This document shows, piece by piece, positions 17,283 through 59,301 of a DNA stretch of 64,000 nt. The DNA is taken from contig OZ024742.1 in assembly GCA_964016885.1 (NCBI GenBank), positions 109,368,001-109,432,000 on the forward strand, read 5' to 3'. The translations under genes and the position numbers were made by a program. The notes beneath the pieces are model-generated. The model saw nothing but the letters and a program-made list of their open reading frames with translations. It had not been told where the DNA came from and searched no databases. The DNA is from Eledone cirrhosa. Taxonomy: Eukaryota. Numbering within the stretch: the first letter of the stretch is position 1; each line of letters starts with the position of its first letter.

Positions 17283-18490
17283 AAGAACTAAGTGAGATGG
17301 ATGTTAGAACTCGAAAACTTCTCAGTGTTACTGGGAACTTTAACATCAATGGTGATGTGGATAGGCTATACTTCTCACGCAAGGAAGGTGGCCGGGGTCT
17401 AAAATCAATATTAACAACATATGAGACCCGGATAGTGACACTGAAGCAACACCTTCAACAGAGGAAAAAGGTTGGCAACCATCTTGCCCAGGTTTATGAC
17501 CATGAAAAAAGAAATATCATTAGAATAGCGACTGATCTGGAGGAGAGATATGGAATAAAGCCCGATATAAATCTCTCACCCAGAGAAATCGGAAGATCCT
17601 ATTCAATGTTCAAACAAGAAAAAAAAATTGACCAATTTACAGAAAAAGTTGTGCATGGATACTTGAGGCGTAAAACACAGACCATAGAGGGGATAAACCA
17701 CTCAAAAAGCCTGGCATGGAGTTCCGACAAGTTTATGACATCACACCTTGAGGGATATCTCTATGCAATACAGGAACAAGAACTCCCTACCAAATATCTG
17801 CTGCACAAAAGAGGAGGGCCAGCAGCTGACAATAAATGTAGGCTATGTAAAACAAAGATCGAGGATGTAAGCCACATTGTTGCCAGCTGCGAAAGAATGT
17901 CATCTCGCTACTACCTCCCCATGAGACACGATGGGATAGCTAGAACCATCTGGAACGCACTTCGGAAAACAAAATTAACAACAAACGAGGAAGAATATAT
18001 TGAGACAGATGGCACTAAGGAATACTGGTGGAACCTGAAAATAAAAACTGCCACCAGATTAAAGCACAACCGGCCTGATATTGTAGTTTGGGACCACACA
18101 TTGAAAACGTGTTCTGTTGTGGAGATCAGCTGCCCACTTGATGTAAACGTTGTCAGAAAAATACAGGAGAAGGAGGACATCTACGGACCATTGATGAGGA
18201 GTTTACAAATCCAGTATCCAAGATACACCTTTAGCTTCATACCCATCATTATTGGTGCTACGGGTTATATACCAACCCGCTTGGACCAAAGTATGACTGA
18301 ACTTGGATTTGCGGACAAAAAGCGCAGCTCCCTAATTCATAGTCTACAAATGGCTGCGATAGCTGGCACCTTCAAAATTTGCAAAACATTCTTGCGATTC
18401 AAGGGATGACAATTTCTTTTCTTTTACAACCTTGCCACCAGGAAGGTGGCCGGTCAAAAAAATATACTCAAAATTAAGAGAAAGAGAAAA
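17283..18490 (+). mobile_element. 5'-truncated R4/Dong-clade RLE non-LTR retrotransposon (family A), open 370-aa C-terminal ORF
   Basis: ORF 17297-18409: RKEGGRGL, CRLC..EDVSHIVASC (CCHC), RHD, RPDIVVWD..VVEISCP..K (restriction-like endonuclease); 3' UTR hairpin GCCACC/GGTGGC; CATA repeats at both junctions. Confidence 0.92.
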
Positions 18491-19807: not shown

Positions 19808-22404
19808 CAGTCAACGCGATCAGTCACATATTTTGGCGTGGAAGACTATTTATTAAATTTAAGATGAATACTATCTCCGACAGTAATGCCACAACTACAG
19901 CCAGGTTGAATAACTGGTTATTCTTCTAACTATCCCTTCGGAAGACACCTTTTATTCGAATTCGTAGAGATATCCGACTAAATACATAATTCATTTTACA
20001 AGGATTTGCTACAAACAGCATGGCTGAACACAACATCAACAAGAAAGTTAAGGAAGTATCGAAGACAAATAACAAAGACGGTAATCAAACTTTATTCAGT
20101 TGTAGCTACAGAAGAAACCGAAATTATAAATCGCATTTCTCTTGGAGTTGCGAACTTAATAATGATTTATTTAATTGTTATAAAATGGCAAAAAATAATC
20201 CCTCCATTGGCTATATGAATAGAATGAAGCTACACTGGGACGAAATGCACCCAGAGCTAAATTATTTCACAGCGAAACAATTACGCCAACAAGCGACGTT
20301 TGTTGAACGTAAAAATAAGATAAATATTATTTATTGTAAGTCCCCCACAACAAACATGGAATCAACAACACGTGCTACAGATCGCCATGCTACTAGACTC
20401 CCTAGCAGCCAGGTCGAACAGCGCCTTGAAACAACTATGCCTGTACCATCTAAGTCTACCTCGAATGCTGGGGAAAACACTATCGATAATAATAATAATC
20501 GAAGAAATAATAATAATAATAATCGAATAAATGTGACACCACGTATACCATCCGAGTCTACCTCGACTGTTGTGGAAAATACTATCGATAATGATAATCA
20601 AAAGTATAAACAATTGAAAATTTCCCTCAACGAAATCTTCCAGAGAGAAATTAACTCATGTATAAATATCTCTCTGGCTGAACGTGTTAAAATGACAATG
20701 GTGAATAAAAAACCAAATAATGAAATACTACGTGTTATTGACGAAATAGGGGATGAATATTTACGACGGATAAAACCCCAACATTTTGGCAAATCAACGC
20801 CTGTTTATATGCCTTAGCAATGACAGTGAAACATTATCTTGGTGATAGCAGAGATATTAACAAGAACAAAACACCACCAAAAATACCATCATATATAACT
20901 AAAATAGAAAAAAAGAGTGCTGACCTACGAAAAAACATAGGACATGTGATAATGCTCCTTACATGCAAACAAATACAAAAAAACTCACTCGTCACCAACA
21001 GAGAGTGAAAAATAAAATAGAGACGATGTTTGGTAACAGTAGAACCAGAACTCTCCAATATAAGCTGATCACCCTCAAACAAGAATTGAGAGCTGTTAGC
21101 GAAAAACGCCGATACCTGTAGAAGGTAGATGAGAGAAAAATGCTTAATAAAAGATTCAGACGAAACCAAACATCAGTCTATAGAGATATGAAGGGCAAAA
21201 TAATAAGTGTCACTAAGGCCCCATCCCAGAAAGACATAGATTCCTTTTGGAGAAAAATATGGGGTGAAAAGAAGAATTTCAACCAAGATGCAGTGTGGTT
21301 AAGAGAAATCCGAAAGAACTATTGCTCCTACACTACAACAAAAACATACGAAATAAGTGAGGGTACCCTTGAGACTGTGATAGGAAAACTCCAAGATAAG
21401 AAAACACCAGGAAGAGACATGATTGTCGGCTACTGGTACAAAAAACTAATATTCTATCGGAGGTATCTTACTGACCTCTACCAACAAGTTCTTAAGGGAG
21501 AGACACTTATAACAGAATGGTTGACATTAGCACAAACATTACTGGTCCCCAAGAACAAAAACACCTACCTGGCAAAAAACTACCGACCCATTGCATGCCA
21601 GAACCTGATGTATAAGATGTATACAGCCTGCCTCAACCTATTCCTCCAAGATCACTGGGGAAATAATAACATCATCACAGATGAACAAGCAGCTGGAAAG
21701 AAAAGGGTTTGGGGATGTGCTGAACAACTCCTAATCAATAAAACTGCGATGTCGGAGGTGCGACAACTTAGGAGTAATATGGCTACAGTCTGGCTGGACT
21801 ACAGGAAAGCTTTCTATTCTGTTCCCCACTCTTGGATGATAGAGGCCCTCTGACTTGCTAAAGTCCCAGACATTATTATCAGAGCCATAGAGAAGCTGTC
21901 TTCTTCTTAGGCTACTATCCTAAAGTTAAAGACAGAGAAGGAGGACTCTTTTCACTGATAAAATAACATATCGCAGGGGTATATTTCAGGGAGACAGTCA
22001 CTCTGTGATATTATTCATCCTGTCATTAAACCCCTTATCTTTTCTGCTCAAGAAATGTGAAGGATACATCATTGGCTCACAGGAGGACAGAAATATGAAC
22101 CTAACCTATAATTTCTTTGTGGATGATCTGAAACTCTATGCCAAGAACATGGATGGGATGAAGAAAAATCTTGACCTGGATACAACGTTCTCAAAGGATA
22201 TAGGAATGGAGCTTGGCCAAGATAAATGCTCATATATGACTGTAAAGCGGGAAAAACAACAAACCAATCTAGCAACATTTGTATCAATGGCCTAACTGTT
22301 TCACCAATATCTGATGAACACTGCTACAGATATCTGGGGATAGATGAGAACATACGGAACGCGTAACCAGGGAATACTACACCCGATTAAGAAAGATATG
22401 GTCA

Positions 22405-22414: not shown

Positions 22415-23490
<1,076 letters not shown>

Positions 23491-29425: not shown

Positions 29426-32400
29426 ACCAGTGCCACCACCAAGGTCACCAGTGCCACCACCAAGATCACCTGTGCCACCACCAAGATCACCAATGCCACC
29501 ACCAAGATCACCTGTGCCACCACCTAGATCACCAATGCCACCACCAAGATCACCTGTGCCACCACCTAGATCACCAGTGCCACCACCAAGATCACCTGTG
29601 CCACAACCAAGATCACCAGTGCCACCACCAAGATCACCAATGCCACCACCAAGATCACCTGTGCCACCACCTAGATCACCAGTGCCACCACCAAGATCAC
29701 CAGTGCCACCACCAAGATCACCAGTGCCACAACCAAGATCACCAGTGCCACCACCAAGATCACCAGTGCCACCACCAAGATCACCTGTGCCACCACCTAG
29801 ATCACCAGTGCCACCACCAAGATCACCAGTGCCACCACCAAGATCACCAGTGCCAACACCAAGTTCACCAGTGCCACCACCAAGGTCACCAGTGCCACAA
29901 CCAAGATCACCAGTGCCACCACCAAGATCACCAGTGCCACCACCAAGATCACCAGTGCCACCACCAAGATCACCGGTGCCACAACCAAGATCACCAGTGC
30001 CACAACCAAGATCACCAGTGCCACCACCAAGATCACCAGTGCCACCACCAAGATCACCAGTGCCAACACCAAGTTCACCAGTGCCACCACCAAGGTCACC
30101 AGTGACACCACCAAGATCACCAGTGCCAACACCAAGTTCACCAGTGCCACCACCAAGATCACCAATGCCACAACCAAGATCACCAGTGCCACCACCAAGA
30201 TCACCAGTGTCACCACCAAGGTCACCAGTGCCACCAACAAGGTCACCAGTGCCACCACCAAGATCATCAGTGCCACCACCAAGATCACCAGTGCCACCAC
30301 CAAGGTCACCAGTGCCACCACCAAGATCACCAGTGCCACCACCAAGGTCACCAGTGCCACCACCAAGATCACCAGTGCCAACACCACCAAGATCACCAGT
30401 GTCACCACCAAGATCATCAGTGCCACCACCAAGATCACCAGTGCCACCACCAAGGTCACCAGTGCCACCACCAAGATCACCAGTACCACCACCAAGATCA
30501 CCAGTGCCACCACCAAGATCACCAGTGCCAACACCACCAAGATCACCAGTGCCACCACCAAGATCACCAGTGCCACCACCAAGATCACCAATGCCACCAC
30601 CAAGATCACCAGTGCCACCACCAAGATCACCAGTGCCACCACCATATCACCAGTGCCACTATCAAGATCACCAGTGCCACCACCAAGATCACCAATGCCA
30701 CCACCAAGATAACCAGTGCCACCACCAAGATCACCAGTGCCACCACCAAGATCACCAATGCCACCACCAAGATCACCAGTGCCACCACCAAGATCACCAG
30801 TGCCACCACCAAGATCACCAGTGCCACCACCAAGGTCACCAGTGCCACCACCAACATCACCAGTGCCACCACCAAGATCACCAGTGCCACCACCAAGATC
30901 ACCAGTGCCACCACCAAGGTCACCAGTGCCACCACCAAGATCACCAGTGCCACCACCAAGATCGCCAGTGCCCCCACCAAGGTCACCAGTGCCACCACCA
31001 AGATCACCAGTGCCACCACCACCAAGATCACCAGTGCCACCACCAAGATCACCAGTGCCACCACCAAGATCACCAGTGCCAACACCAAGATCACCAGTGC
31101 CACCACCAAGATCACCAGTGCCACCACCAAGATCACCAGTGCCACCCGCAAGATCACCAGTGCCACCACCTAGGTCACCAGTGCCACCACCAAGATCACC
31201 AGTGCCACCACCAAGATCACCAGTGCCACCACCAAGATCACCAGTGCCACCACCAAGATCACCAATTCCACCACCAAGATAACCAGTGCCACCACCAAGA
31301 TCATCAGTGCCACCACCAAGATCACCAGTGCCACCACCAAGATCACCAGTGCCACCACCAAGATCACCAGTGCCACCACCAAGGTCACCAGTGCCACCAC
31401 CAACATCACCAGTGCCACCACCAAGGTCACCAGTGCCACTACCAAGGTCACCAGTGCCACCACCAAGATCACCAGTGCCACCACCAAGATCACCAGTGCC
31501 ACCACCAAGATCACCAGTGCCACCACCAAGATCACCAGTGCCACCACCAAGATCACCAGTGCCAACACCACCAAGATCACCAGTGCCACCACGAAGATCA
31601 CCAGTGCCACCACCAAGGTCACCAGTGCCACCACCAAGATCTCCAGTGCCACCACCAAGTTCACCAGTGCCACCACCAAGATCAGTGCCACCACCACCAA
31701 GATCAACAACGCCACCACCAAGATCACCAGTGCCACCACCAAGATCACCAGTGCCACCACCAAGATCACAAGTGCCACCACCAAGATCACCAGTGCCACC
31801 ACCAACATCACCAATGCCACCACCAAGATCACCAGTGCCACCACCAAGATCACCAGTGCCACCACCAAGATCACCAGTGCCACCACCAAGATCACCAGTG
31901 CCACCACCAATATCACCAGTGCCACCAAGATCACCTGTGCCACCACCAAGGTCACCAGTGCCACCACCAAGATCACCAGTGCCACCACCAAGGTCACCAG
32001 TGTCACCACCAAGATCACCAGTGCCACCACCAAGATCACCAATGCCACCACCAAGATCACCAATGCCACCACCAAGGTCACCAGTGCCACCACCTAGATC
32101 ACCAGTGCCACCACCAAGATCACCAGTGTCACCACCAAGGTCACCAGTGCCACCACCAAGGTCACCAGTGCCACCACCAAGATAACCAGTGCCACCACCA
32201 AGATCACCAGTGCCACCACCAAGATCACCAGTGCCACCACCAAGATCTCCAGTGCCACCACCAAGTTCACCAGTGCCACTACCAAGAGCACCAGTGCCAC
32301 CACCAAGATCACCAGTGCAACCACCAAGATCACCAGTGCCACCACCAAGATCTCCAGTGCCACCACCAAGTTCACCAGTGCCACTACCAAGAGCACCAGT

Positions 32401-35400
32401 GCCACCACCAAGATCACCAGTGCCACCACCAAGATCACCAGTGCCACCACCAAGGTCACCAGTGCCACCACCAAGATCACCAGTGCCACCACCAAGATCA
32501 CCTGTGCCACCACCAAGATCACCAGTGCCACCACCAAGGTCACCAGTTTCACCACCAAGATCACCAGTGCCACCACCAAGATCACCAGTGCCACCACCAA
32601 GATCACCAGTGTCACCACCAAGATCACCAGTGCCACCACCAAGATCACCAGTGCCACCACCTAGATCACCAGTGCCACCACCAAGATCACCAGTGCCACC
32701 ACCAAGATCACCAGTGCCACCACCAAGGTCACCAGTGCCACCACCAAGGTCACCAGTGTCACCACCAAGATCACCAGTGCCACCACCAAGATCACCAGTG
32801 TCACCACCAAGATCACCAGTGCCACCACCAAGATCACCTGTGCCACCACCAAGGTCACCAGTGCCACCACCTAGATCACCAGTGCCACCACCAAGATCAC
32901 CAGTGCCACCACCAAGATCACCAGTGCCACCACCAAGGTCACCAGTGCCACCACCAAGATCATCAGTGCCCCTACCAAGATCACCAGTGCCACCACCAAG
33001 ATCACCAGTGCCACCACCAAGGTCACCAGTGCCACCACCAAGATCACCAGTACCACCACCAAGATCACCTGTGCCACCACCAAGATCACCAGTGCCACCA
33101 CCAAGTTCACCAGTGCCACCACCAAGATCACCAGTGCCAAACCAACATCACCAGTGCCACCACCAAGATCACCAGTGCCACCACCAACATCACCAGTGCC
33201 AACACCAACATCACCAGTGCCACCACCAAGATCACCAGTGCGACCACCAAGATCACCAGTGCCACCACCAAGATCACCAGTGCCACCACCAAGATCACCA
33301 GTGCCAACACCAAGATCACCAGTGCCACCAACAGGTTCACCAGTGCAACCACCAAGATCACCAGTGCCACCACCAAGATCACCAGTGCTACCACCAAGAT
33401 CACCAGTGCCACCACCAAGATCACCAGTGCCACCACCAAGATCACCAGTGCCACTACCAACATCACCAATACCACCACCAAGACCACCAGTGCCACCACC
33501 AAGATCACCAGTGCCACCACCAGGATCACCAGTGCCACCACCAAGATCACCAGTGCCACCACCAAGATCATCAGTGCCACCACCAAGATCACCAGTGCCA
33601 CCACCAAGATCACCAGTCCCACCACCAAGATCACCAGTGCCAACACCAACATCACCAGTGCCACCACCAAGATCACCAGTGCCACCACCAAGATCACCAG
33701 TGCCAACACCAACATCACCAGTGCCACCACCAAGATCACCAGTGCCACCACCAAGATCACCAGTGCCACCACCAAGATCACCAGTGCCACCACCAAGATC
33801 ACCAGTGCCACCACCAAGATCACCAGTGCTACCACCAAGGTCACCAATGCCACCACCAAGATCACCAGTGTTACCACCAAGGTCACCAATGCCACCACCA
33901 AGATCACCAGTGCCACCACCAAGATCACCAGTGCCACCAGCAACATCACCAGTGCCACCACCAAGATCACCAGTGCCACCACCAAGATCACCAGTGCCAC
34001 CACCAAGGTCACCAGTGCCACCACCAAGGTCACCAGTGTCACCACCAAGATCACCAGTGCCACCACCAAGATCACCAGTGTCACCACCAAGATCACCAGT
34101 GCCACCACCAAGATCACCTGTGCCACCACCAAGGTCACCAGTGCCACCACCTAGATCACCAGTGCCACCACCAAGATCACCAGTGCCACCACCAAGATCA
34201 CCAGTGCCACCACCAAGGTCACCAGTGCCACCACCAAGATCATCAGTGCCCCTACCAAGATCACCAGTGCCACCACCAAGATCACCAGTGCCACCACCAA
34301 GGTCACCAGTGCCACCACCAAGATCACCAGTACCACCACCAAGATCACCTGTGCCACCACCAAGATCACCAGTGCCACCACCAAGTTCACCAGTGCCACC
34401 ACCAAGATCACCAGTGCCAACACCAACATCACCAGTGCCACCACCAAGATCACCAGTGCCACCACCAAGATCACCAGTGCCAACACCAACATCACCAGTG
34501 CCACCACCAAGATCACCAGTGCGACCACCAAGATCACCAGTGCCACCACCAAGATCACCAGTGCCACCACCAAGATCACCAGTGCCAACACCAAGATCAC
34601 CAGTGCCACCACCAGGTTCACCAGTGCAACCACCAAGATCACCAGTGCCACCACCAAGATCACCAGTGCTACCACCAAGATCACCAGTGCCACCACCAAG
34701 ATCACCAGTGCCACCACCAAGATCACCAGTGCCACTACCAACATCACCAATACCACCACCAAGATCACCAGTGCCACCACCAAGATCACCAGTGCCACCA
34801 CCAGGATCACCAGTGCCACCACCAAGATCACCAGTGCCACCACCAAGATCATCAGTGCCACCACCAAGATCACCAGTGCCACCACCAAGATCACCAGTAC
34901 CACCACCAAGATCACCAGTGCCAACACCAACATCACCAGTGCCACCACCAAGATCACCAGTGCCACCACCAAGATCACCAGTGCCAACACCAACATCACC
35001 AGTGCCACCACCAAGATCACCAGTGCCACCACCAAGATCACCAGTGCCACCACCAAGATCACCAGTGCCACCACCAAGATCACCAGTGCCACCACCAAGA
35101 TCACCAGTGCTACCACCAAGGTCACCAATGCCACCACCAAGATCACCAGTGTTACCACCAAGGTCACCAATGCCACCACCAAGATCACCAGTGCCACCAC
35201 CAAGATCACCAGTGCCACCAGCAACATCACCAGTGCCACCACCAAGATCACCAGTGCCACCACCAAGATCACCAGTGCCAACACCAACATCACCAGTGCC
35301 ACCACCAAGATCACCAGTGCCACCACCAAGATCACCAGTGCTACCACCAAGGTCACCAATGCCACCACCAGGATCACCAGTGCCACCACCAAGATCACCA

Positions 35401-38400
35401 GTGCCACCAGCAAGATCACCAGTGCCACCACCAAGATCACCAGTGCCACTACCAAGATCACCAGTGCCACCACCAAGATCACCAGTGTTACCACCAAGGT
35501 CACCAATGCCACCACCAAGATCACCAGTGCCACCACCAAGATCACCAGTGCCACCACCAAGATCACCAGTGCCACCACCAAGATCACCAATGCCACCACC
35601 AAGATCACCAGTGCCACCACCAAGATCACCAGTGCCACCACCAAGATCACCAGTGCCACCACCAAGATCACCAATGCCACCACCAAGATCACCAGTGCCA
35701 CCACCAAGATCACCAGTGCCACCAGCAACATCACCAGTGCCACCACCAAAGTCACCATTGCCACCACCAAGATCACCAGTGCCACCACCAAGGTCACCAG
35801 TGCCACCACCAAGATCACCAATGTTACCACCAAGGTCACCAGTGCCACCACCAAGTTCACCAGTGCCACCACCAAGGTCACTAGTGCCACCACCAAGGTT
35901 ACCAGTGCCACCACCAAGGTCACCAGTCCCACCACCAAGATCACCAATGTTACCACCAAGGTCACCAGTGCCACCATCAAGGTCACCAGTGCCACCACCA
36001 AGGTCACCAGTGCCACCACCATGATCACCAGTGTCACCACCAAGATCACCAGTGCCGCCACCAAGATCACCAGTGCCACCACCAAGATCACCAGTGCCAC
36101 CACCAAGATCACCAGTGCCACCACCAAGATCACCAGTGCCACTACCAACATCACCAATGCCACCACCAAGATCACCAGTGCCACCACCAAGATCACCAGT
36201 GCCAACACCACCAAGATCACCAGTGCCACCACCAAGATCACCAGTGCCACCACCAGGATCACCAGTGCCACCACCAAGATCACCAGTGCCACCACCAAGA
36301 TCATCAGTGCCACCACCAAGATCACCAGTGCCACCACCAAGATCACCAGTCCCACCACCAAGATCACCAGTGCCAACACCAACATCACCAGTGCCACCAC
36401 CAAGATCACCAGTGCCACCACCAAGATCACCAGTGCCACCACCAAGATCACCAGTGCTACCACCAAGGTCACCAATGCCACCACCAAGATCACCAGTGCC
36501 AACACCAAGATCACCAGTGCCACCAGCAACATCACCAGTGCCACCACCAAGATCACCAGTGCCACCACCAAGATCACCAGTGCCACCACCAAGATCACCA
36601 GTGCCACCACCAAGATCACCAGTGCCACCACCAAGATCACCAGTGCTACCACCAAGGTCACCAATGCCACCACCAGGATCACCAGTGCCACCACCAAGAT
36701 CACCAGTGCCACCACCAAGATCACCAGTGCCACCACCAAGATCACCAGTGCCACTACCAAGATCACCAGTGCCACCACCAAGATCACCAGTGTTACCACC
36801 AAGGTCACCAATGCCACCACCAAGATCACCAGTGCCACCACCAAGATCACCAGTGCCACCACCAAGATCACCAGTGCCACCACCAAGATCACCAATGCCA
36901 CCACCAAGATCACCAGTGCCACCACCAAGATCACCAGTGCCACCACCAAGATCACCAGTGCCACCACCAAGATCACCAATGCCACCACCAAGATCACCAG
37001 TGTTACCACCAAGATCACCAGTGCCACCACCAAGATCACCAGTGCCACCACCAAGATCACCAGTGCCACCACCAAGATCACCAGTGCCACCAGCAACATC
37101 ACCAGTGCCACCACCAAGGTCACCATTGCCACCAGCAAGATCACCAGTGCCACCACCAAGGTCACCAGTGCCACCACCAAGATCACCAATGTTACCACCA
37201 AGGTCACCAGTGCCACCACCAAGTTCACCAGTGCCACCACCAAGGTCACCAGTGCCACCACCAAGGTTACCAGTGCCACCACCAATGTCACCAGTCCCAC
37301 CACCAAGATCACCAATGTTACCACCAAGGTCATCAGTGCCACCATCAAGGTCACCAGTGCCACCACCAAGGTCACCAGTGCCACCACCATGATCACCAGT
37401 GTCACCACCAAGATCACCAGTGCCGCCACCAAGATCACCAGTGCCACAACCAAGATCACCAGTGCCACCACCAAGGTCACCAGTGCCACCACCAAGATCA
37501 CCAGTGCCACTACCAAGATCACCAGTGCCACCACCAAGATCACCAGTGCCACCACCAAGGTCACCAGTGCCACCACCAAGATCACCAGTGCCACCACCAA
37601 GATCAACAATACCACCACCAAGGTCACCAGTGCCACCACCAAGATCACCAGTGCCACCACCAAGATCACCAGTGCCACCACCAAGATCACCAGTGCCACC
37701 ACCAAGATCTCCAGTGCCACCACCAAGTTCACCAGTGCCACTACCAAGAGCACCAGTGCCACCACCAAGATCACCAGTGCAACCACCAAGATCACCAGTG
37801 CCACCACCAAGATCTCCAGTGCCACCACCAAGTTCACCAGTGCCACTACCAAGAGCACCAGTGCCACCACCAAGATCACCAGTGCCACCACCAAGATCAC
37901 CAGTGCCACCACCAAGGTCACCAGTGCCACCACCAAGATCACCAGTGCCACCACCAAGATCACCTGTGCAACCACCAAGATCACCAGTGCCACCACCAAG
38001 GTCACCAGTTTCACCACCAAGATCACCAGTGCCACCACCAAGATCACCAGTGCCACCACCAAGATCACCAGTGTCACCACCAAGATCACCAGTGCCACCA
38101 CCAAGATCACCAGTGCCACCACCTAGATCACCAGTGCCACCACCAAGATCACCAGTGCCACCACCAAGATCACCAGTGCCACCACCAAGGTCACCAGTGC
38201 CACCACCAAGGTCACCAGTGTCACCACCAAGATCATCAGTGCCCCTACCAAGATCACCAGTGCCACCACCAAGATCACCAGTGCCACCACCAAGGTCACC
38301 AGTGCCACCACCAAGATCACCAGTACCACCACCAAGATCACCTGTGCCACCACCAAGATCACCAGTGCCACCACCAAGTTCACCAGTGCCACCACCAAGA

Positions 38401-41400
38401 TCACCAGTGCCAACACCAACATCACCAGTGCCACCACCAAGATCACCAGTGCCACCACCAAGATCACCAGTGCCAACACCAACATCACCAGTGCCACCAC
38501 CAAGATCACCAGTGCGACCACCAAGATCACCAGTGCCACCACCAAGATCACCAGTGCCACCACCAAGATCACCAGTGCCAACACCAAGATCACCAGTGCC
38601 ACCACCAGGATCACCAGTGCAACCACCAAGATCACCAGTGCCACCACCAAGATCACCAGTGCTACCACCAAGATCACCAGTGCCACCACCAAGATCACCA
38701 GTGCCACCACCAGGATCACCAGTGCAACCACCAAGATCACCAGTGCCACCACCAAGATCACCAGTGCTACCACCAAGATCACCAGTGCCACCACCAAGAT
38801 CACCAGTGCTACCACCAAGATCACCAGTGCCACCACCAAGATCACCAGTGCCACCACCAAGATCACCAGTGCCACTACCAACATCACCAGTGCCACCACC
38901 AGGATCACCAGTGCCACCACCAAGATCACCAGTGCCACCACCAAGATCACCAGTGCCAACACCACCAAGATCACCAGTGCCACCACCAAGATCACCAGTG
39001 CCACCACCAGGATCACCAGTGCCACCACCAAGATCACCAGTGCCACCACCAAGATCATCAGTGCCACCACCAAGATCACCAGTCCCACCACCAAGATCAC
39101 CAGTGCCAACACCAACATCACCAGTGCCACCACCAAGATCACCAGTGCCACCACCAAGATCACCAGTGCCAACACCAACATCACCAGTGCCACCACCAAG
39201 ATCACCAGTGCCACCACCAAGATCACCAGTGCCACCACCAAGATCACCAGTGCCACCACCAAGATCACCAGTGCCACCACCAAGATCACCAGTGCTACCA
39301 CCAAGGTCACCAATGCCACCACCAAGATCACCAGTGTTACCACCAAGGTCACCAATGCCACCACCAAGATCACCAGTGCCACCACCAAGATCACCAGTGC
39401 CACCAGCAACATCACCAGTGCCACCACCAAGATCACCAGTGCCAGCACCAAGATCACCAGTGCCAACACCAACATCACCAGTGCCACCACCAAGATCACC
39501 AGTGCCACCACCAAGATCACCAATGCCACCACCAAGATCACCAGTGCCACCACCAAGATCACCAGTGCCACCACCAAGATCACCAGTGCCACTACCAAGA
39601 TCACCAGTGCCACCACCAAGATCACCAGTGTTACCACCAAGGTCACCAATGCCACCACCAAGATCACCAGTGCCACCACCAAGATCACCAGTGCCACCAC
39701 CAAGATCACCAGTGCCACCACCAAGATCACCAATGCCACCACCAAGATCACCAGTGCCACCACCAAGATCACCAGTGCCACCACCAAGATCACCAGTGCC
39801 ACCACCAAGATCACCAATGCCACCACCAAGATCACCAGTGCCACCACCAAGATCACCAGTGCCACCAGCAACATCACCAGTGCCAACACCAAGGTCACCA
39901 TTGCCACCACCAAGATCACCAGTGCCACCAGCAACATCACCAGTGCCACCACCAAGGTCACCATTGCCACCACCAAGATCACCAGTGCCACCACCAAGGT
40001 CACCAGTGCCACCACCAAGATCACCAATGTTACCACCAAGGTCACCAGTGCCACCACCAAGTTCACCAGTGCCACCACCAAGGTCACTAGTGCCACCACC
40101 AAGGTTACCAGTGCCACCACCAAGGTCACCAGTCCCACCACCAAGATCACCAATGTTACCACCAAGGTCACCAGTGCCACCATCAAGGTCACCAGTGCCA
40201 CCACCATGATCACCAGTGTCACCACCAAGATCACCAGTGCCGCCACCAAGATCACCAGTGCCGCCACCAAGATCACCAGTGCCACCACCAAGATCACCAG
40301 TGCCACCACCAAGATCACCAGTGCCACCACCAAGATCACCAGTGCCACTACCAACATCACCAATGCCACCACCAAGATCACCAGTGCCACCACCAAGATC
40401 ACCAGTGCCAACACCACCAAGATCACCAGTGCCACCACCAAGATCACCAGTGCCACCACCAGGATCACCAGTGCCACCACCAAGATCACCAGTGCCACCA
40501 CCAAGATCATCAGTGCCACCACCAAGATCACCAGTGCCACCACCAAGATCACCAGTGCCACCACCAAGATCACCAGTGCCACCACCAAGATCACCAGTCC
40601 CACCACCAAGATCACCAGTGCCAACACCAACATCACCAGTGCCACCACCAAGATCACCAGTGCCACCACCAAGATCACCAGTGCCAACACCAACATCACC
40701 AGTGCCACCACCAAGATCACCAGTGCCACCACCAAGATCACCAGTGCCACCACCAAGATCACCAGTGCCACCACCAAGATCACCAGTGCTACCACCAAGG
40801 TCACCAATGCCACCACCAAGATCACCAGTGTTACCACCAAGGTCACCAATGCCACCACCAAGATCACCAGTGCCACCACCAAGATCACCAGTGCCACCAG
40901 CAACATCACCAGTGCCACCACCAAGATCACCAGTGCCACCACCAAGATCACCAGTGCCAACACCAACATCACCAGTGCCACCACCAAGATCACCAGTGCC
41001 ACCACCAAGATCACCAGTGTTACCACCAAGGTCACCAATGCCACCACCAGGATCACCAGTGCCACCACCAAGATCACCAGTGCCACCACCAAGATCACCA
41101 GTGCCACCACCAAGATCACCAGTGCCACCACCAAGATCACCAGTGCCACCACCAAGATCACCAGTGCCACTACCAAGATCACCAGTGCCACCACCAAGAT
41201 CACCAGTGTTACCACCAAGGTCACCAATGCCACCACCAGGATCACCAGTGCCACCACCAAGATCACCAGTGCCACCACCAAGATCACCAGTGCCACCACC
41301 AAGATCACCAGTGCCACCACCAAGATCACCAGTGCCATCACCAAGATCACCAGTGCCACCACCAAGATCACCAATGCCACCACCAAGATCACCAGTGCCA

Positions 41401-42105
41401 CCACCAAGATCACCAGTGCCACCACCAAGATCACCAGTGCCACCACCAAGATCACCAATGCCACCACCAAGATCACCAGTGCCACCACCAAGATCACCAG
41501 TGCCACCAGCAACATCACCAGTGCCACCACCAAGGTCACCATTGCCACCACCAAGATCACCAGTGCCACCACCAAGGTCACCAGTGCCACCACCAAGATC
41601 ACCAATGTTACCACCAAGGTCACCAGTGCCACCACCAAGTTCACCAGTGCCACCACCAAGGTCACCAGTGCCACCACCAAGGTTACCAGTGCCACCACCA
41701 ATGTCACCAGTCCCACCACCAAGATCACCAATGTTACCACCAAGGTCACCAGTGCCACCATCAAGGTCACCAGTGCCACCACCAAGGTCACCAGTGCCAC
41801 CACCATGATCACCAGTGTCACCACCAAGATCACCAGTGCCGCCACCAAGATCACCAGTGCCACCACCAAGATCACCAGTGCCACCACCAAGGTCACCAGT
41901 GCCACCACCAAGATCACCAGTGCCACTACCAAGATCACCAGTGCCACCACCAAGATCACCAGTGCCACCACCAAGGTCACCAGTGCCACCACCAAGATCA
42001 CCAGTGCCACCACCAAGATCAACAATACCACCACCAAGGTCACCAGTGCCACCACCAAGGTCACCAGTGCCACCACCAAGGTCACCAATGTTACCACCAA
42101 GATCA
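29426..42105. repeat. 21-bp minisatellite, consensus ACCAGTGCCACCACCAAGATC, ~600 units
   Basis: Continuous ~12.7-kb array with recurrent variant units. Confidence 0.98.
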
Positions 42106-42463
42106 GCTCCAGCATCACGTGTCCCTCTCCAACCATTAGAACGACAACTGAAATCAAGCAGTAATAATGTAACTTAGGTGATGACCTTCAATTCGTTGTT
42201 ATTGTTGTTGTTGTTGTTGTTGTTACTGATATTGTTGTTACTGTTGCTATTGCTGTTATTGTTGTTGATATCCTTCTTCTTCTTCTTCTTCTTCTTCTTC
42301 TTCTTCTTCTTCTTCTTCTTGTCGTTGTTGTTATGGTTGCTGACATGTTGTTATTTCTATCCGTGTCGTTATTGTTGTTGTTGTTACTGGTGTCGTTGCT
42401 ATTATTGTTGTTGTTATTGTCGTTGCTCTTGTCATTATTAATATTATTACTATCATTGTTATC

Positions 42464-51434: not shown

Positions 51435-54400
51435 TACGCGTTATTGACGAAATAGGGGATGAATATTTACGACGGATAAAAGCCCCAACATTTTGGCAAA
51501 TCAACGCCTGTTTATATGCCCTAGCAACGACAGTGAGGCATTATCTTGGTGATAGCAGAGATATTAACTAGAACAGAACACCACCAAAAATACCATCATA
51601 TATAACTAAAATAGAAAAAAAGAGTGCTGACCTACGAAAAAACATAGGACATGTGACAATGTTCCTTACATGTAAACAAACACAAAAAAACCTCACTCCT
51701 CACCAACAAAGAGTGAAAAATAAAATAGAGACGATGTTTGGTAACAGTAGAACCAGAACTCTTCAATATAAGCTGATCACCCTCAAACAAGAATTGAGAG
51801 CTGTTAGCGAAAAACGCCGATACCTGAAGAAGGTAGATGAGAGAAAAGTTATTAATAAAAGATTCAGACGAAACCAAACATCAGTCTATAGAGATATGAA
51901 GGGCAAAATAATAAGTGTCACTGAGGCCCCATCCCAGAAAGACAGATTCCTTTTGGAGAAAAATATGGGGTGAAAAGAAGAATTTCAACCAAGATGCAGT
52001 GTGGCTAAGAGAAATCCGAAAGAACTATTGTTCCTACACTACAACAAAAACATACGAAATAAGTGAGGATACCCTTGAGACTGTGATAGGAAATACCAAG
52101 ATAAGAAAACACCAGGAAGAGACATGATTGTCGGCTACTGGTACAAAAAACTGATATTCTATCGGAGGTATCTTACTGACCTCTACCAATAAGTTCTTAA
52201 GGGAGATACACTTATACCAGAATGATTGACATTAGCACAAACATTACTGGTCCCCAAGAACAAAAACACCCACTTGGCAAAAACTACCGACTCATTGCAT
52301 GCCAGAACCTGATGTATAAGATGTATACAGCCTGCCTGAACCTATTCCTCCAAGATCACTGTGAAAATAATAACATCATCACAGATGAACAAGCAGCTGG
52401 ACAGAAGGGGATTGGGGATGTGCTGAACAACTCCTAATCAACAAAACTGCGATGTCGGAGGTGCGACTACTTGGGAGGAATATGACTACAGTCTGGCTGG
52501 ACTACAGGAAAGCTTTCGATTCTGTCCCCCCACTCTTGGATGATAGAGGCCCTCCGACTTGCTAAAGTCCCAGACATTATTGTCAGAGCCATAGAGAGGC
52601 TGTCTTCTTCTTGGGCTACTATCCTAAGGTTAAAGACAGAGAGGGGGGACTTTATTTTCACTGATAAAATGAAATATTGCAGGGGTATATTTCAGGGGGA
52701 CAGTCTCTCGGTGATATTATTCATCTTGTCATTAAACCCCTTGTCCTTTCTGCTCAAGAAATGTGAGGGATACATCATTGGCTCACAGGAAGGCAGAAAT
52801 AGGAATCCAACCCATAATTTCTTTGTGGGCGATCTGAAACTCTATGCCAAGAACATGGATGGGATGAAGAAAAATCTTGACCTGGTTACAACGTTCTCAA
52901 AGGATATAGGAATGGAGTTTGGCCAAGATAAATGCTCATACATGACTGTAAAGCGGGGAAAAACAACAACCCAATCTAGCAACATTGTTATCAATGGCCT
53001 AACTGTTTCACCGATATCTTATAAGGACTGCTACAGATACCTGGGGTAGATGAGAACATATCCTATAATGGTATCTGTAATAAAGAACGCGTAACCAGGG
53101 AATACTACACCCGATTAAGAAAACAAAACAGTGGCTCACAATGTGTTTGCTGTGCCTGTCCTAACACCAACATTTGGAATACTCAATTGGACGATTGACG
53201 AAATCCGAGCAGTTGATGTTGGAACTCGAAAAATACTGAACTACACCGGAAACTTCCACATCAACAGTGACATAGACCGCCTTTACTTGAAACGTAAGCA
53301 GGGAGGCAGAGGCCTAACATCAGTCCAGATAACATTTGAATGTCGCATCATATCTCTCCGACAACATCTACGAACCTTGAAGCGTAGGAGTCAGTTTCTC
53401 GAGCAAGTCTATCTGCATGAAACAGAAGGAACTCCTCGAGAGATATTCCCTGTGTGATAATCAAAAGCTGACACCCAGGGATGTCGCTCAGCAGTATCGC
53501 AGTCAATCCATGGATGGAACACTGCATGCAAAAAAATCGTGCATGGATATGTTGCCAGGAAGCTCCAGAGTGAGGGTAATATACATAAGGAATGTAGTCT
53601 ATCTTGGACCAACAACCACTATATTGGCTCCCCCTTTGAAGGATACGCTTTTACAATCCAGGAACAGGAGATTAACACGAAATACCTGATTCACAAAAGA
53701 GATAGGGATGCAGGCAAAACACCTAGATGTGATAACAAGTGCAGACTCTGCAGAACTAACATCGGGGATATCACCCATGTCATCAGCAGCTGTCCAAAGA
53801 TGTCATCGCGGAACTATCTACCTATGAGGCATGATGTAGTGGCCAAAACACTGTACAATGCAGTTCGCAAAAAAGATAGCCCCGATAATAAACACATTAA
53901 AAGCTACATAATATGAAAGAGTACTGGTGGAATGTTTCAGTAAAATCCCCAATAAAATGCAGGCATAACAGACCAGATATTATGATATGGGACAGGGAGA
54001 AAAAAACATGCACAGTAGTGGAAGTTAGCTGCCCAGCAGATGCCAATATAATATCAAAGATTAGTGAAAAGGAGAATATTTATGCAGAACTGATGAGAAA
54101 TCTGCAGATACTCCACCCTGATTACACTTTCAGATTTATACCTGTGATTATTGGGGCACTGGGATATGTTAGTAACTGCCTCAATACAAATTTTGAGAAG
54201 CTAGGCTTCACAGGAACAGAAAGAACACAACTAGTTAGGAAATTACAAGTTCAATCCATTAATGGAAAAGTAAAAATATGTAAAACATTCCAAAAATGTT
54301 GCATCTAATAACTACAATTACATATGTACAGATGCAAAGCATATACACATGCTCACATACAACTCAAAATATACACATCCACACATACAATAACATCCAT

Positions 54401-57889: not shown

Positions 57890-58173
57890 GTATCCATACG
57901 TACATAAGAATGAACTAACATAACATACACATATATAAATGCATATACGTATATATAAATATATATATACATGCATTAGCCTGCAAAGTTAATATTTCTT
58001 TGCGTGTATAGATCTGTGCATGCATAATCACAACAGACATACAAGAAGATGTACACGCACGAACACAGACACACATTCACAGATCTGTATATATATATGT
58101 GTGCGTGTGTGTGTGTGAGAGTGGGGGGGTGCGTGCATGAGTGCGTGGTGTGTGTGTGTGTATGTGTGTGTGT

Positions 58174-58237
<64 letters not shown>

Positions 58238-58240
<3 letters not shown>

Positions 58241-58503
58241 AAATACAATGGTCTTGTCATTTGTTCATCACTGAAGCTTGCAACGATTGTCCAAAACCAA
58301 TCTAGCGCTATGCCAAAGGCTGCAGAATGCCACGTATAGAATGGTATTCTTTGAAGTTAGATATGCTGTAATTACTGGTACCGACATTAAAAGCTTGTTA
58401 ATTCTCATCAAAGGTATCCAGTAAGTTGTCAGGAAAGTTTGCAGAAAATATTCGGTGTTCAGTGAGCAGATCAAGGTACAAGAGTTTGTTCTTATTAATC
58501 ACC
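58238..58503 (-). pseudogene. AREL1: AREL1-like HECT E3 ligase retrocopy, inverted 5' segment
   Basis: Minus strand VINKNKLLYLDLLTEHR..FPDNLLDTFDEN*..LDWFWTIVASFSDEQMTRPLYLT resembles the AREL1 HECT as I recall it (VTNANKIFYLNLLAQYR..VPENLLAIFDENE..WFWTVVSSLTQEELARLLQFT); stop and frameshifts present. Confidence 0.78.
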
Positions 58504-58506
58504 GAA

Positions 58507-58695
58507 GTCTTGGAGCCAGGAGGATTTCCAGCGCTGAAACCCAAGTTTCAAACAACTACTATTCTCAACACATTACCTCCAGTATATACATGTTTCAGTC
58601 AACTGTGTCTACCAGACTATGATTCTATCGACAAATTCCACAAGACTCTAATGATAGCGACTAATGAAAGCAACTAAGTTAGTGGGATGGTTTAA
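58507..58695 (+). pseudogene. AREL1: AREL1-like HECT retrocopy, C-terminal segment
   Basis: LEPGGFPALKPKFQ..TLPPVYTCFSQLCLPDYDS..LMIATNESN*VSGMV* versus the recalled LPPGGFAAL.P.FQ..TLPTAHTCFNQLCLPTYDS..LAISEGCEGFGML*. Confidence 0.82.
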
Positions 58696-58957
58696 TGAAG
58701 GGGAGTGTATGTGTGAGTGAGAGTAAGAGAGGAAGAAAGATTGTTTTATATTAAATAAGATAGGAAGGTGAAAAAGAGAGAATGGATGGTGGTAGTACAT
58801 CATTCAGTAAAGTTGTTCAATTTCATGAGTTGGAGTTGGAGTTGGAGCAAAAAGGATTTGTTGATATATCATATATAAGCTGAAGAAGGGCAAACATGGA
58901 GTACGATCATATCTAACTCTACACAACTATCTGTTCACAGGTAAATCTACTTGTTAA

Positions 58958-59262
58958 GGCGCATGGCTTAGTGGATAGGCTGTTTAGCTTACGATCGTAA
59001 GGTCATATGTTCAACTTACGATGGCACGCTGTGTTCTTGAGCCAAACACTTTATTTCACATTACTTTAGTTATTCAACTCGCAACTGTACCTGTAATTGA
59101 AAGGCCCAGCCTTGTCATTCAATGTACTATGCTAAAGTTCCTTAAAAGCTACATTAACGGTACACGTGTCTGTGAGATGTTCAGCCATATGCAACTTAAT
59201 TTTACTAACAGGATGTTCCGTTGATTTAATTACCCGGGACAACTATCGTTGGAACCCATGGA
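58958..59262 (+). mobile_element. tRNA-derived SINE family 2
   Basis: Head GGCGCATGGCTTAGTGG, body TGTGTTCTTGAGC.AAACACTTTATTTCAC. Confidence 0.65.
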
Positions 59263-59267
59263 GATCC

Positions 59268-59301
<34 letters not shown>

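What the first reader, a model, noticed from the sequence alone, without database searches (positions are those of the whole stretch)
58238..58695. AREL1-like processed pseudogene with twin-priming inversion geometry
Seen: the upstream HECT segment reads leftward and ends at RPLYLT next to (TG)n. The downstream segment reads rightward from xLxPGG, only about 4-5 codons further along the protein. The two 5' ends meet at ~58505, and no introns are apparent. Known: this is the geometry of twin priming, described mainly for mammalian L1. Inference: twin-primed mRNA retrotransposition in an invertebrate, possibly with the (TG)n target annealing to ACA in the mRNA.
Basis: partly seen in the sequence, partly recalled or inferred. 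Interest (0 to 1): 0.7.

Follow-up and report, generated by a model that had tools for sequence, protein, structure and literature searches.

The report
Flipped, tailless AREL1 processed pseudogene
A dead, intron-free copy of the ubiquitin-ligase gene AREL1 has its front half flipped and no poly(A) tail, likely because both ends of one chromosome cut copied the same messenger RNA, an accident described mainly in mammals and seen here in what is likely an invertebrate.

Summary
Confirmed and extended. Window 58238-58902 is a single decayed retrocopy of the AREL1 gene on contig C21. The left arm (58517 to 58238, minus strand) crosses two exon junctions; the right arm (58516-58902) crosses one and runs about 205 nt into the 3' UTR. 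The arms meet head to head on a 2-nt microhomology, 19-22 nt of mRNA are missing at the inversion point, both arms are 16% diverged, and no upstream remnant lies beside them. That is twin-priming geometry. But poly(A) and a target duplication were looked for and not found, so it works like, but does not fully qualify as, a canonical L1 twin-primed pseudogene. The (TG)n may be the target or may have grown from the copy's own end. The enzyme is unassigned: sampled Tx1-type LINEs showed 0 of 41 such inversions; Penelope-like loci often carry head-to-head arms (15-20 of 40) but mostly end in (TA)n, which this copy lacks. The scan's earlier, unchecked notes report two-sided priming on other DNA of this genome (retroelements, not a host mRNA like this). 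One non-functional copy: modest interest.

The parts
58238..58517 (-). Inverted arm: AREL1 mRNA from inside exon B (C21:4100857) through exon C to exon D (C21:4102525); frameshifts, stops and a ~40-nt internal deletion
   Evidence: 45 differences in 280 aligned bases
58516..58517 (.). Inner junction, 2-nt microhomology (CC) shared by both arms, no inserted bases
   Evidence: chance of 2 or more shared bases 0.167
58516..58698 (+). Forward arm, coding part: rest of exon D (from C21:4102548) spliced to exon E; catalytic-Cys codon kept, premature stop at 58675-58677, original stop at 58693-58695
   Evidence: 30 differences in 183 aligned bases
58699..58902 (+). Forward arm, 3' UTR; ends without an A tail, about 560 nt before the parent's first AATAAA/ATTAAA downstream
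58098..58239 (+). TG-rich tract abutting the inverted arm; near-pure run 58149-58238; 58145-58150 is the exact complement of the mRNA's CACCAC. Either target/primer or an expansion inside the copy's end
58903..58951 (.). Right flank: 49 nt not matching the parent, not A-rich, not repetitive
58952..59270 (+). Old SINE-like repeat downstream, probably an independent insertion (25% from the majority of its 24 closest relatives, which lie at a median 10%)

Best explanation
A spliced AREL1 mRNA was reverse-transcribed into this site, and the flip likely arose in that same event because both DNA ends at the cut each primed a cDNA on the one RNA. Shown: spliced template, head-to-head arms, adjacency of the two arms on the mRNA (19-22 nt apart), 2-nt inner microhomology, equal decay, no upstream remnant, no tail. 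Inferred: the first cDNA started in the 3' UTR (internally, or on a tail later deleted) and ran back to exon D; the other DNA end, probably TG-rich, annealed at the CACCACA just upstream in exon D and copied ~330 nt to exon B; the two cDNA ends were joined through CC. The copy was dead on arrival (differences spread over all three codon positions). The retroelement enzyme is not identified.
For: Three exon junctions crossed. Outer end of the inverted arm and inner end of the forward arm lie 19-22 nt apart on the mRNA; in human L1, 46% (132/287) of 5' inversions have these ends within 20 bp (PMC12016303 section 8). No foreign DNA between the arms. No sense remnant: spliced exons vs the 64-kb window gave only the three known hits at E<0.4; 90 kb of the parent region vs window+20 kb gave only those exon/UTR hits plus repeat-like pieces; exon A matched only its own place in the genome (1 of 1). 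Arms equally diverged, 45/280 vs 30/183, Fisher p=1. Differences by codon position 29/156, 17/154, 29/153 (summed). Outer-end complementarity to CACA/CACCAC; about 70% of 5'-inverted L1 have 2-5 bp there (PMC2912911). Head-to-head arms are common in this genome's GIY-YIG elements.
Against: No poly(A), no significant target duplication: the best candidate (9 of 11 columns) is matched or beaten by 5 of 27 other TG tracts and by 7.6% of random stretches; human processed pseudogenes show poly(A) in 95.7% and a duplication in 69.6% of 23 (PMC12016303). The inner microhomology is not rare by chance (0.167). Equal decay of the arms is also expected after a later inversion. Internal inversions do occur here: 1 of 40 GIY-YIG loci (L175) has the same adjacency but with a sense remnant on the left. 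Sampled Tx1-type LINEs gave 0 single-RNA inversions in 41 clear truncations. The empty site was not recovered.
Confidence: 0.68

Rival explanations
1. An ordinary colinear 5'-truncated retrocopy was inserted first; a later DNA-level inversion flipped ~330 nt, and any upstream remainder and the tail were deleted or overgrown by microsatellite.
For: No tail or duplication survives, so the ends may have been reworked; the arm carries a ~40-nt later deletion; L175 shows an internal inversion in this genome; an earlier unchecked note (e1-10319091) reports a late inversion in a retrogene of this genome.
Against: Needs one breakpoint at the very 5' end of the copy (no flank trapped) or complete loss of the remainder (none found); L175 does keep its remainder.
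Confidence: 0.17
2. A free AREL1 cDNA fragment or RNA was captured at a chromosome break without an element endonuclease, and the inversion came from a strand switch by a repair polymerase or the RT rather than from a second target primer.
For: Tailless, duplication-less ends with short microhomologies; ends match neither the (ATT)n of the sampled Tx1 family nor the (TA)n of 12 of 20 inverted GIY-YIG loci; host retrocopies look rare (0 in RPL3 and HSP90).
Against: A fold-back switch would duplicate sequence in both arms; here the arms do not overlap and abut on the mRNA, which two primers on one RNA predict directly. Break-primed twin priming is counted under the best explanation.
Confidence: 0.13
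3. Assembly artefact or chance resemblance.
For: The locus abuts microsatellites, where assemblies can err.
Against: 84% identical to the parent with independent decay; one short-read contig spans the junction with 0 differences in 3 of 3 whole-genome runs of one sample.
Confidence: 0.02

Closest known systems
5'-inverted (twin-primed) L1 insertions and mRNA retrocopies of mammals (PMC2912911, parts 1-3 of 5 read; PMC12016303, passages and section 8 read; Ostertag and Kazazian 2001 and Kojima and Okada 2009 not held, known only as cited or recalled)
   Same: Spliced mRNA template; inverted upstream arm joined head to head to a forward arm; small loss at the inversion point; short microhomology at inner and probably outer junction; arm lengths of a few hundred bases
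   Different: No poly(A), no detectable target duplication or TT/AAAA site; host is not a mammal; enzyme unknown. In cell assays 5' inversions were seen almost only with human L1 in human cells, plus one Nimb-2_DR insert in chicken cells (PMC4245944, passages)
Tailless retropseudogenes (as described in PMC2912911, part 2-3)
   Same: 3'-truncated, no A tail, presumably primed internally by microhomology
   Different: Those are small non-coding RNAs with target duplications and no inversion; this is an mRNA with an inversion and no duplication found
Penelope-like elements with inverted pLTR arms (PMC3846280, passages; PMC11167929, parts 1-2 of 4)
   Same: Head-to-head arms, tails out; in vitro the Anolis enzyme extends both strands and starts inside the RNA at an AC-rich site, as the inverted arm here starts at CACCACA
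   Different: No pLTR or element sequence in this copy; known host-gene mobilisation by Penelope needs pLTRs and keeps introns; ends here lack (TA)n
Antisense RNA/LINE-1 chimeras attributed to twin priming on two RNAs (PMC13174262, passages)
   Same: Two primers at one cut give opposite-orientation pieces
   Different: Here both pieces come from one mRNA and abut on it

Membership tests
Processed pseudogene | Introns precisely removed relative to a parent gene elsewhere | tested here: met
   3 of 3 junctions within the copied span are fused; parent on C21
Processed pseudogene | Disabled, decaying without protein constraint | tested here: met
   Frameshifts, premature stop, differences at all codon positions
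Twin-primed 5'-inverted retrocopy (L1 type) | Upstream part inverted, 5' ends meeting, arms adjacent on the RNA with small loss or overlap | tested here: met
   19-22 nt missing
Twin-primed 5'-inverted retrocopy (L1 type) | Microhomology at the inner junction | tested here: inconclusive
   2 nt present; chance 0.167
Twin-primed 5'-inverted retrocopy (L1 type) | Microhomology between target end and internal RNA site | tested here: inconclusive
   2-6 nt fit to CACA/CACCAC, but target and later repeat growth cannot be told apart without the empty site
Twin-primed 5'-inverted retrocopy (L1 type) | No sense remnant outside the inverted arm, no flank between arms | tested here: met
Twin-primed 5'-inverted retrocopy (L1 type) | Poly(A) tail at the 3' end | tested here: not met
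   Copy ends in mid-UTR at 58902, followed by non-A-rich sequence; loss by later deletion not excluded
Twin-primed 5'-inverted retrocopy (L1 type) | 10-20-bp target-site duplication around both arms | tested here: not met
   Only a chance 7-mer away from the ends and a degenerate 10-mer not above null; 16% decay lowers power
Twin-primed 5'-inverted retrocopy (L1 type) | Made by an L1-clade ORF2 protein | not testable with these tools
   Tx1-type elements are present but the sampled family is (ATT)n-bound and showed 0 of 41 such inversions
Penelope-mobilised sequence | pLTR or element sequence framing the cargo; (TA)n at outer ends as in this genome's loci | tested here: not met
   No element sequence inside 58238-58902; neither end has (TA)3 within 50 nt

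The most novel reading that the evidence does not exclude
A non-L1 reverse transcriptase, most boldly a Penelope-like one, can grab a spliced host mRNA with no element sequence and prime it from both sides of one cut at two internal AC-rich sites, making tailless, inverted gene copies in an invertebrate germ line.
Probability: 0.15. Interest if true: 0.7.

Novelty: new variant of a known kind. Interest (0 to 1): 0.38.

Why it matters
5' inversion by twin priming is treated as nearly peculiar to mammalian L1 (PMC4245944; PMC2912911). A host mRNA copy with this geometry in a probable invertebrate, and without tail or duplication, suggests that two-sided priming is a general option of target-primed reverse transcription and that tail-based retrocopy searches miss such copies. 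As one old dead copy with no assigned enzyme it is a data point, not a demonstration; a genome-wide count would turn it into a test.

Tried and rejected
Poly(A) or more UTR hidden behind the downstream repeats: three right-flank pieces aligned to 22 kb of parent downstream sequence scored at shuffle level for 2 of 3; the third, a 59-nt match 14 kb past the parent's stop, is a dispersed repeat with 44 matches. Target duplication: rejected as not above chance. Co-insertion with the downstream SINE (lead from e1-8816641): not supported; 49 unrelated bases lie between, and the SINE is 25% from its family majority against 16% for the copy, though an older subfamily could inflate that. Fold-back: arms do not overlap. 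Other host retrocopies: none in 2 of 2 families searched, RPL3 (5 matches, all exons of one gene) and HSP90 (23 matches, judged from coordinates to be exons of 4 loci); too small to give a rate. Expression: no RNA holder listed. Related species: the run search listed holders of one organism only, and the one reduced-representation run laid does not cover the locus, so no empty site. A protein-homologue search for the parent was not run, so its full length and nearest named relatives are open. A Pfam accession that I recalled for Penelope was not in the library. Two key papers were not held (the first DOI was recalled and may be wrong).

Full report
Observation. The window holds, between a TG tract and an old SINE, two decayed pieces of a HECT ligase in opposite orientation. 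The plus piece is closest to human AREL1 among solved structures (E 7e-12; next ligase 1e-4) and matches Pfam HECT. A search of the window's genome with 58238-58735 gave 6 matches: itself and five pieces of one locus on contig C21, on both strands. That locus has five consecutive GT-AG exons, A to E, with an open frame to the stop. Its last 55 aligned residues are 37 identical to human AREL1 (my count), far below what a mammalian orthologue would give (own knowledge). With the repeat landscape this makes an invertebrate likely; 'octopus-like' comes from my recall of such repeats and from earlier scan notes, not from a taxon look-up.

Anatomy. The minus arm runs from window 58517 (inside exon B, C21:4100857) across B|C and C|D to 58238 (C21:4102525). 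The plus arm runs from 58516 (C21:4102548) across D|E, through the stop and about 205 nt of UTR to 58902. Introns of 1,064, 279 and 1,043 nt are absent. The arms share two bases at the joint, with nothing inserted; random pairs share two or more bases in 16.7% of trials. Twenty-two mRNA bases lie between the aligned outer end of the inverted arm and the start of the forward arm, 19 if the arm's end is placed at 58145. The arms differ from the parent at 45 of 280 and 30 of 183 coding positions (p=1), spread 29/156, 17/154 and 29/153 over codon positions: one age, no protein constraint. Using the rate quoted for octopus repeats (distance 0.2 = 56 million years; PMC13282606, part 1 of 3) the copy would be some 40-50 million years old; this is a rough inference. 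A single short-read contig spans 58249-59260 with no difference in each of three runs of one sample; the fourth run laid, a reduced-representation library, does not cover it (4 of 6 listed runs laid).

Test against a later inversion. A later inversion should trap flank between the arms or leave the upstream part in sense on the left. Neither is seen: spliced exons against the whole window gave three hits at E below 1e-15 and otherwise E of 0.44 or worse; 90 kb around the parent against the window plus 20 kb gave 514 hits, of which 14 were single-copy on both sides, five being the known pieces and nine repeat-like (only one of the nine was checked further); exon A matches only itself in the genome. 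Exons upstream of A were not mapped, so they were tested only as far as they lie in those 90 kb. For contrast, one GIY-YIG locus (L175) has an inversion with the same adjacency and does keep a sense remnant, so such inversions happen here and look different. Loss of a remnant by deletion cannot be excluded.

The ends. But the six bases at the far end of the pure TG run (58145-58150) are the exact complement of the mRNA's CACCAC, and 0 of 27 other TG tracts in the held DNA start that way (a small control), so the pure run may have grown inside the copy's own end. Right: homology stops at 58902 with no A tail; the parent's first AATAAA/ATTAAA downstream is about 560 nt further. A degenerate 10-base candidate duplication is matched by 5 of 27 control tracts and 7.6% of random stretches and was rejected. 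The SINE 49 nt downstream is more diverged than the copy and seems independent.

Which enzyme. A zf-RVT search gave 44,775 first-look candidates, 150 scored (the domain also hits an unrelated LINE in the window, so this is no family count). I took 100 of the 150 loci. They are two-ORF elements with intact 1,073-1,150-residue second ORFs (the Tx1 label is recalled from motif and layout, no tree), ending in and inserting at (ATT)n. Of the 100, 18 reached the locus edge, 4 were full length, 78 were scored truncated; I kept 41 as clear truncations by hand and dropped 37 whose apparent end coincided with divergence from the reference. A GIY-YIG search gave 10,598 candidates, 150 scored; of the first 40 loci, 15 by a strict reading (including L175) and 20 by a looser rule have an inverted arm abutting the body's 5' end, 12 of those 20 with (TA)3 at the outer end against 13% background. 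This is the known Penelope layout (PMC3846280, passages), and an Anolis Penelope protein extends both strands from an internal AC-rich site in vitro (PMC11167929, parts 1-2 of 4). The idea to look at these elements came from earlier scan notes. The AREL1 copy has neither (ATT)n nor (TA)n at its ends, so neither family can be assigned; RTE, CR1 and R4-type elements were not surveyed. Host retrocopies seem scarce: none for RPL3 or HSP90.

Mechanism. Most likely (0.68) both ends of one cut primed cDNA on the same spliced mRNA, one in the 3' UTR and one at the CACCACA in exon D, and the two products were joined at CC. Template, geometry and decay are shown; priming, timing and enzyme are inferred. 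Rivals: later inversion with loss of the remnant (0.17), capture at a break with a polymerase strand switch (0.13), artefact (0.02).

Comparison. In humans about 30% of species-specific L1 and 13% (3 of 23) of polymorphic processed pseudogenes are 5'-inverted (PMC2912911 parts 1-3 of 5; PMC12016303 passages and section 8); in cell assays inversions were almost confined to human L1 in human cells (PMC4245944 passages). Two defining marks, poly(A) and target duplication, were tested and not met, so I file this as working like a twin-primed retrocopy, a tailless variant, not as a full member. Ten literature searches (seen as listings) showed no invertebrate 5'-inverted processed pseudogene, but the two founding papers were not held, subscription journals are missing and no supplements were read, so absence from print is not established. 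Also seen as passages only: PMC9115989, PMC2246262, PMC13174262; reference lists only: PMC5389967, PMC6007223. Earlier unchecked scan notes describe a twin-primed Tx1 copy, two-sided Penelope and retrozyme insertions and a late-inverted retrogene elsewhere in this genome.

Verdict. Real, correctly spotted, a known mechanism in an unexpected host with atypical ends; one dead copy, enzyme unknown. Interest 0.38.

Noticed in passing
L040-L044 (e.g. G000:C2:108508500-108518400): Young Tx1-type LINE family, copies 98-99% alike with intact second ORFs of 1,073-1,150 residues, ending in and inserting at (ATT)n, often stacked directly behind older relatives; probably still active.
   Followed up: partly
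L044 ~4500, L086 ~4615, L137 ~4657 (oriented coordinates): Head-to-head joins of two different 5'-truncated Tx1 copies (72-87% alike), tails pointing outward, no remnant seen within the fetched stretch: priming of two RNAs at one cut, or deletion between inverted neighbours.
   Followed up: partly
L175 2683-5388 (G000:C1:267119500-267125700): GIY-YIG element with an internal inversion: sense piece, inverted 865-nt piece, sense body; 13 nt lost at one end, ~125 nt duplicated at 99% at the other.
   Followed up: partly
L174-L213: 15-20 of 40 GIY-YIG (Penelope-like) loci carry an inverted arm abutting the body's 5' end, outer ends mostly in (TA)n; L200 has an 81-nt inverted copy of its own 5' end at 99%.
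   Followed up: partly
G000:C1:97887800 (-) and C1:97889741 (+): Two GIY-YIG hits of equal score and equal 402-residue open frame facing outward 2 kb apart: probably a young palindromic Penelope-like insertion.
   Followed up: no
window 29500-42150: About 12.6-kb array of ~21-bp GC-richer units with strong strand skew and very long open frames in several phases; probably satellite DNA, mucin-like coding not tested.
   Followed up: no
window 17285-18409, 19990-22295, 51572-54308, 22647-23300: Decayed LINE pieces: restriction-like-endonuclease type (labels recalled) and an RTE-like C-terminus with C2H2 fingers that runs into a (TG)n tract, a possible TG-associated element worth checking as the mobiliser.
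   Followed up: no
L007 7850-8450 (parent 3' UTR, C21:4103850-4104450): The parent's 3' UTR holds three diverged tandem units of about 200 nt; the retrocopy shares features with units 1 and 3 and may preserve an older state.
   Followed up: partly
G000:C22:22763980-22767276 and C22:30957112-30959660: Two intron-containing HSP90 genes 8 Mb apart in opposite orientation on one contig; no processed copies seen.
   Followed up: no
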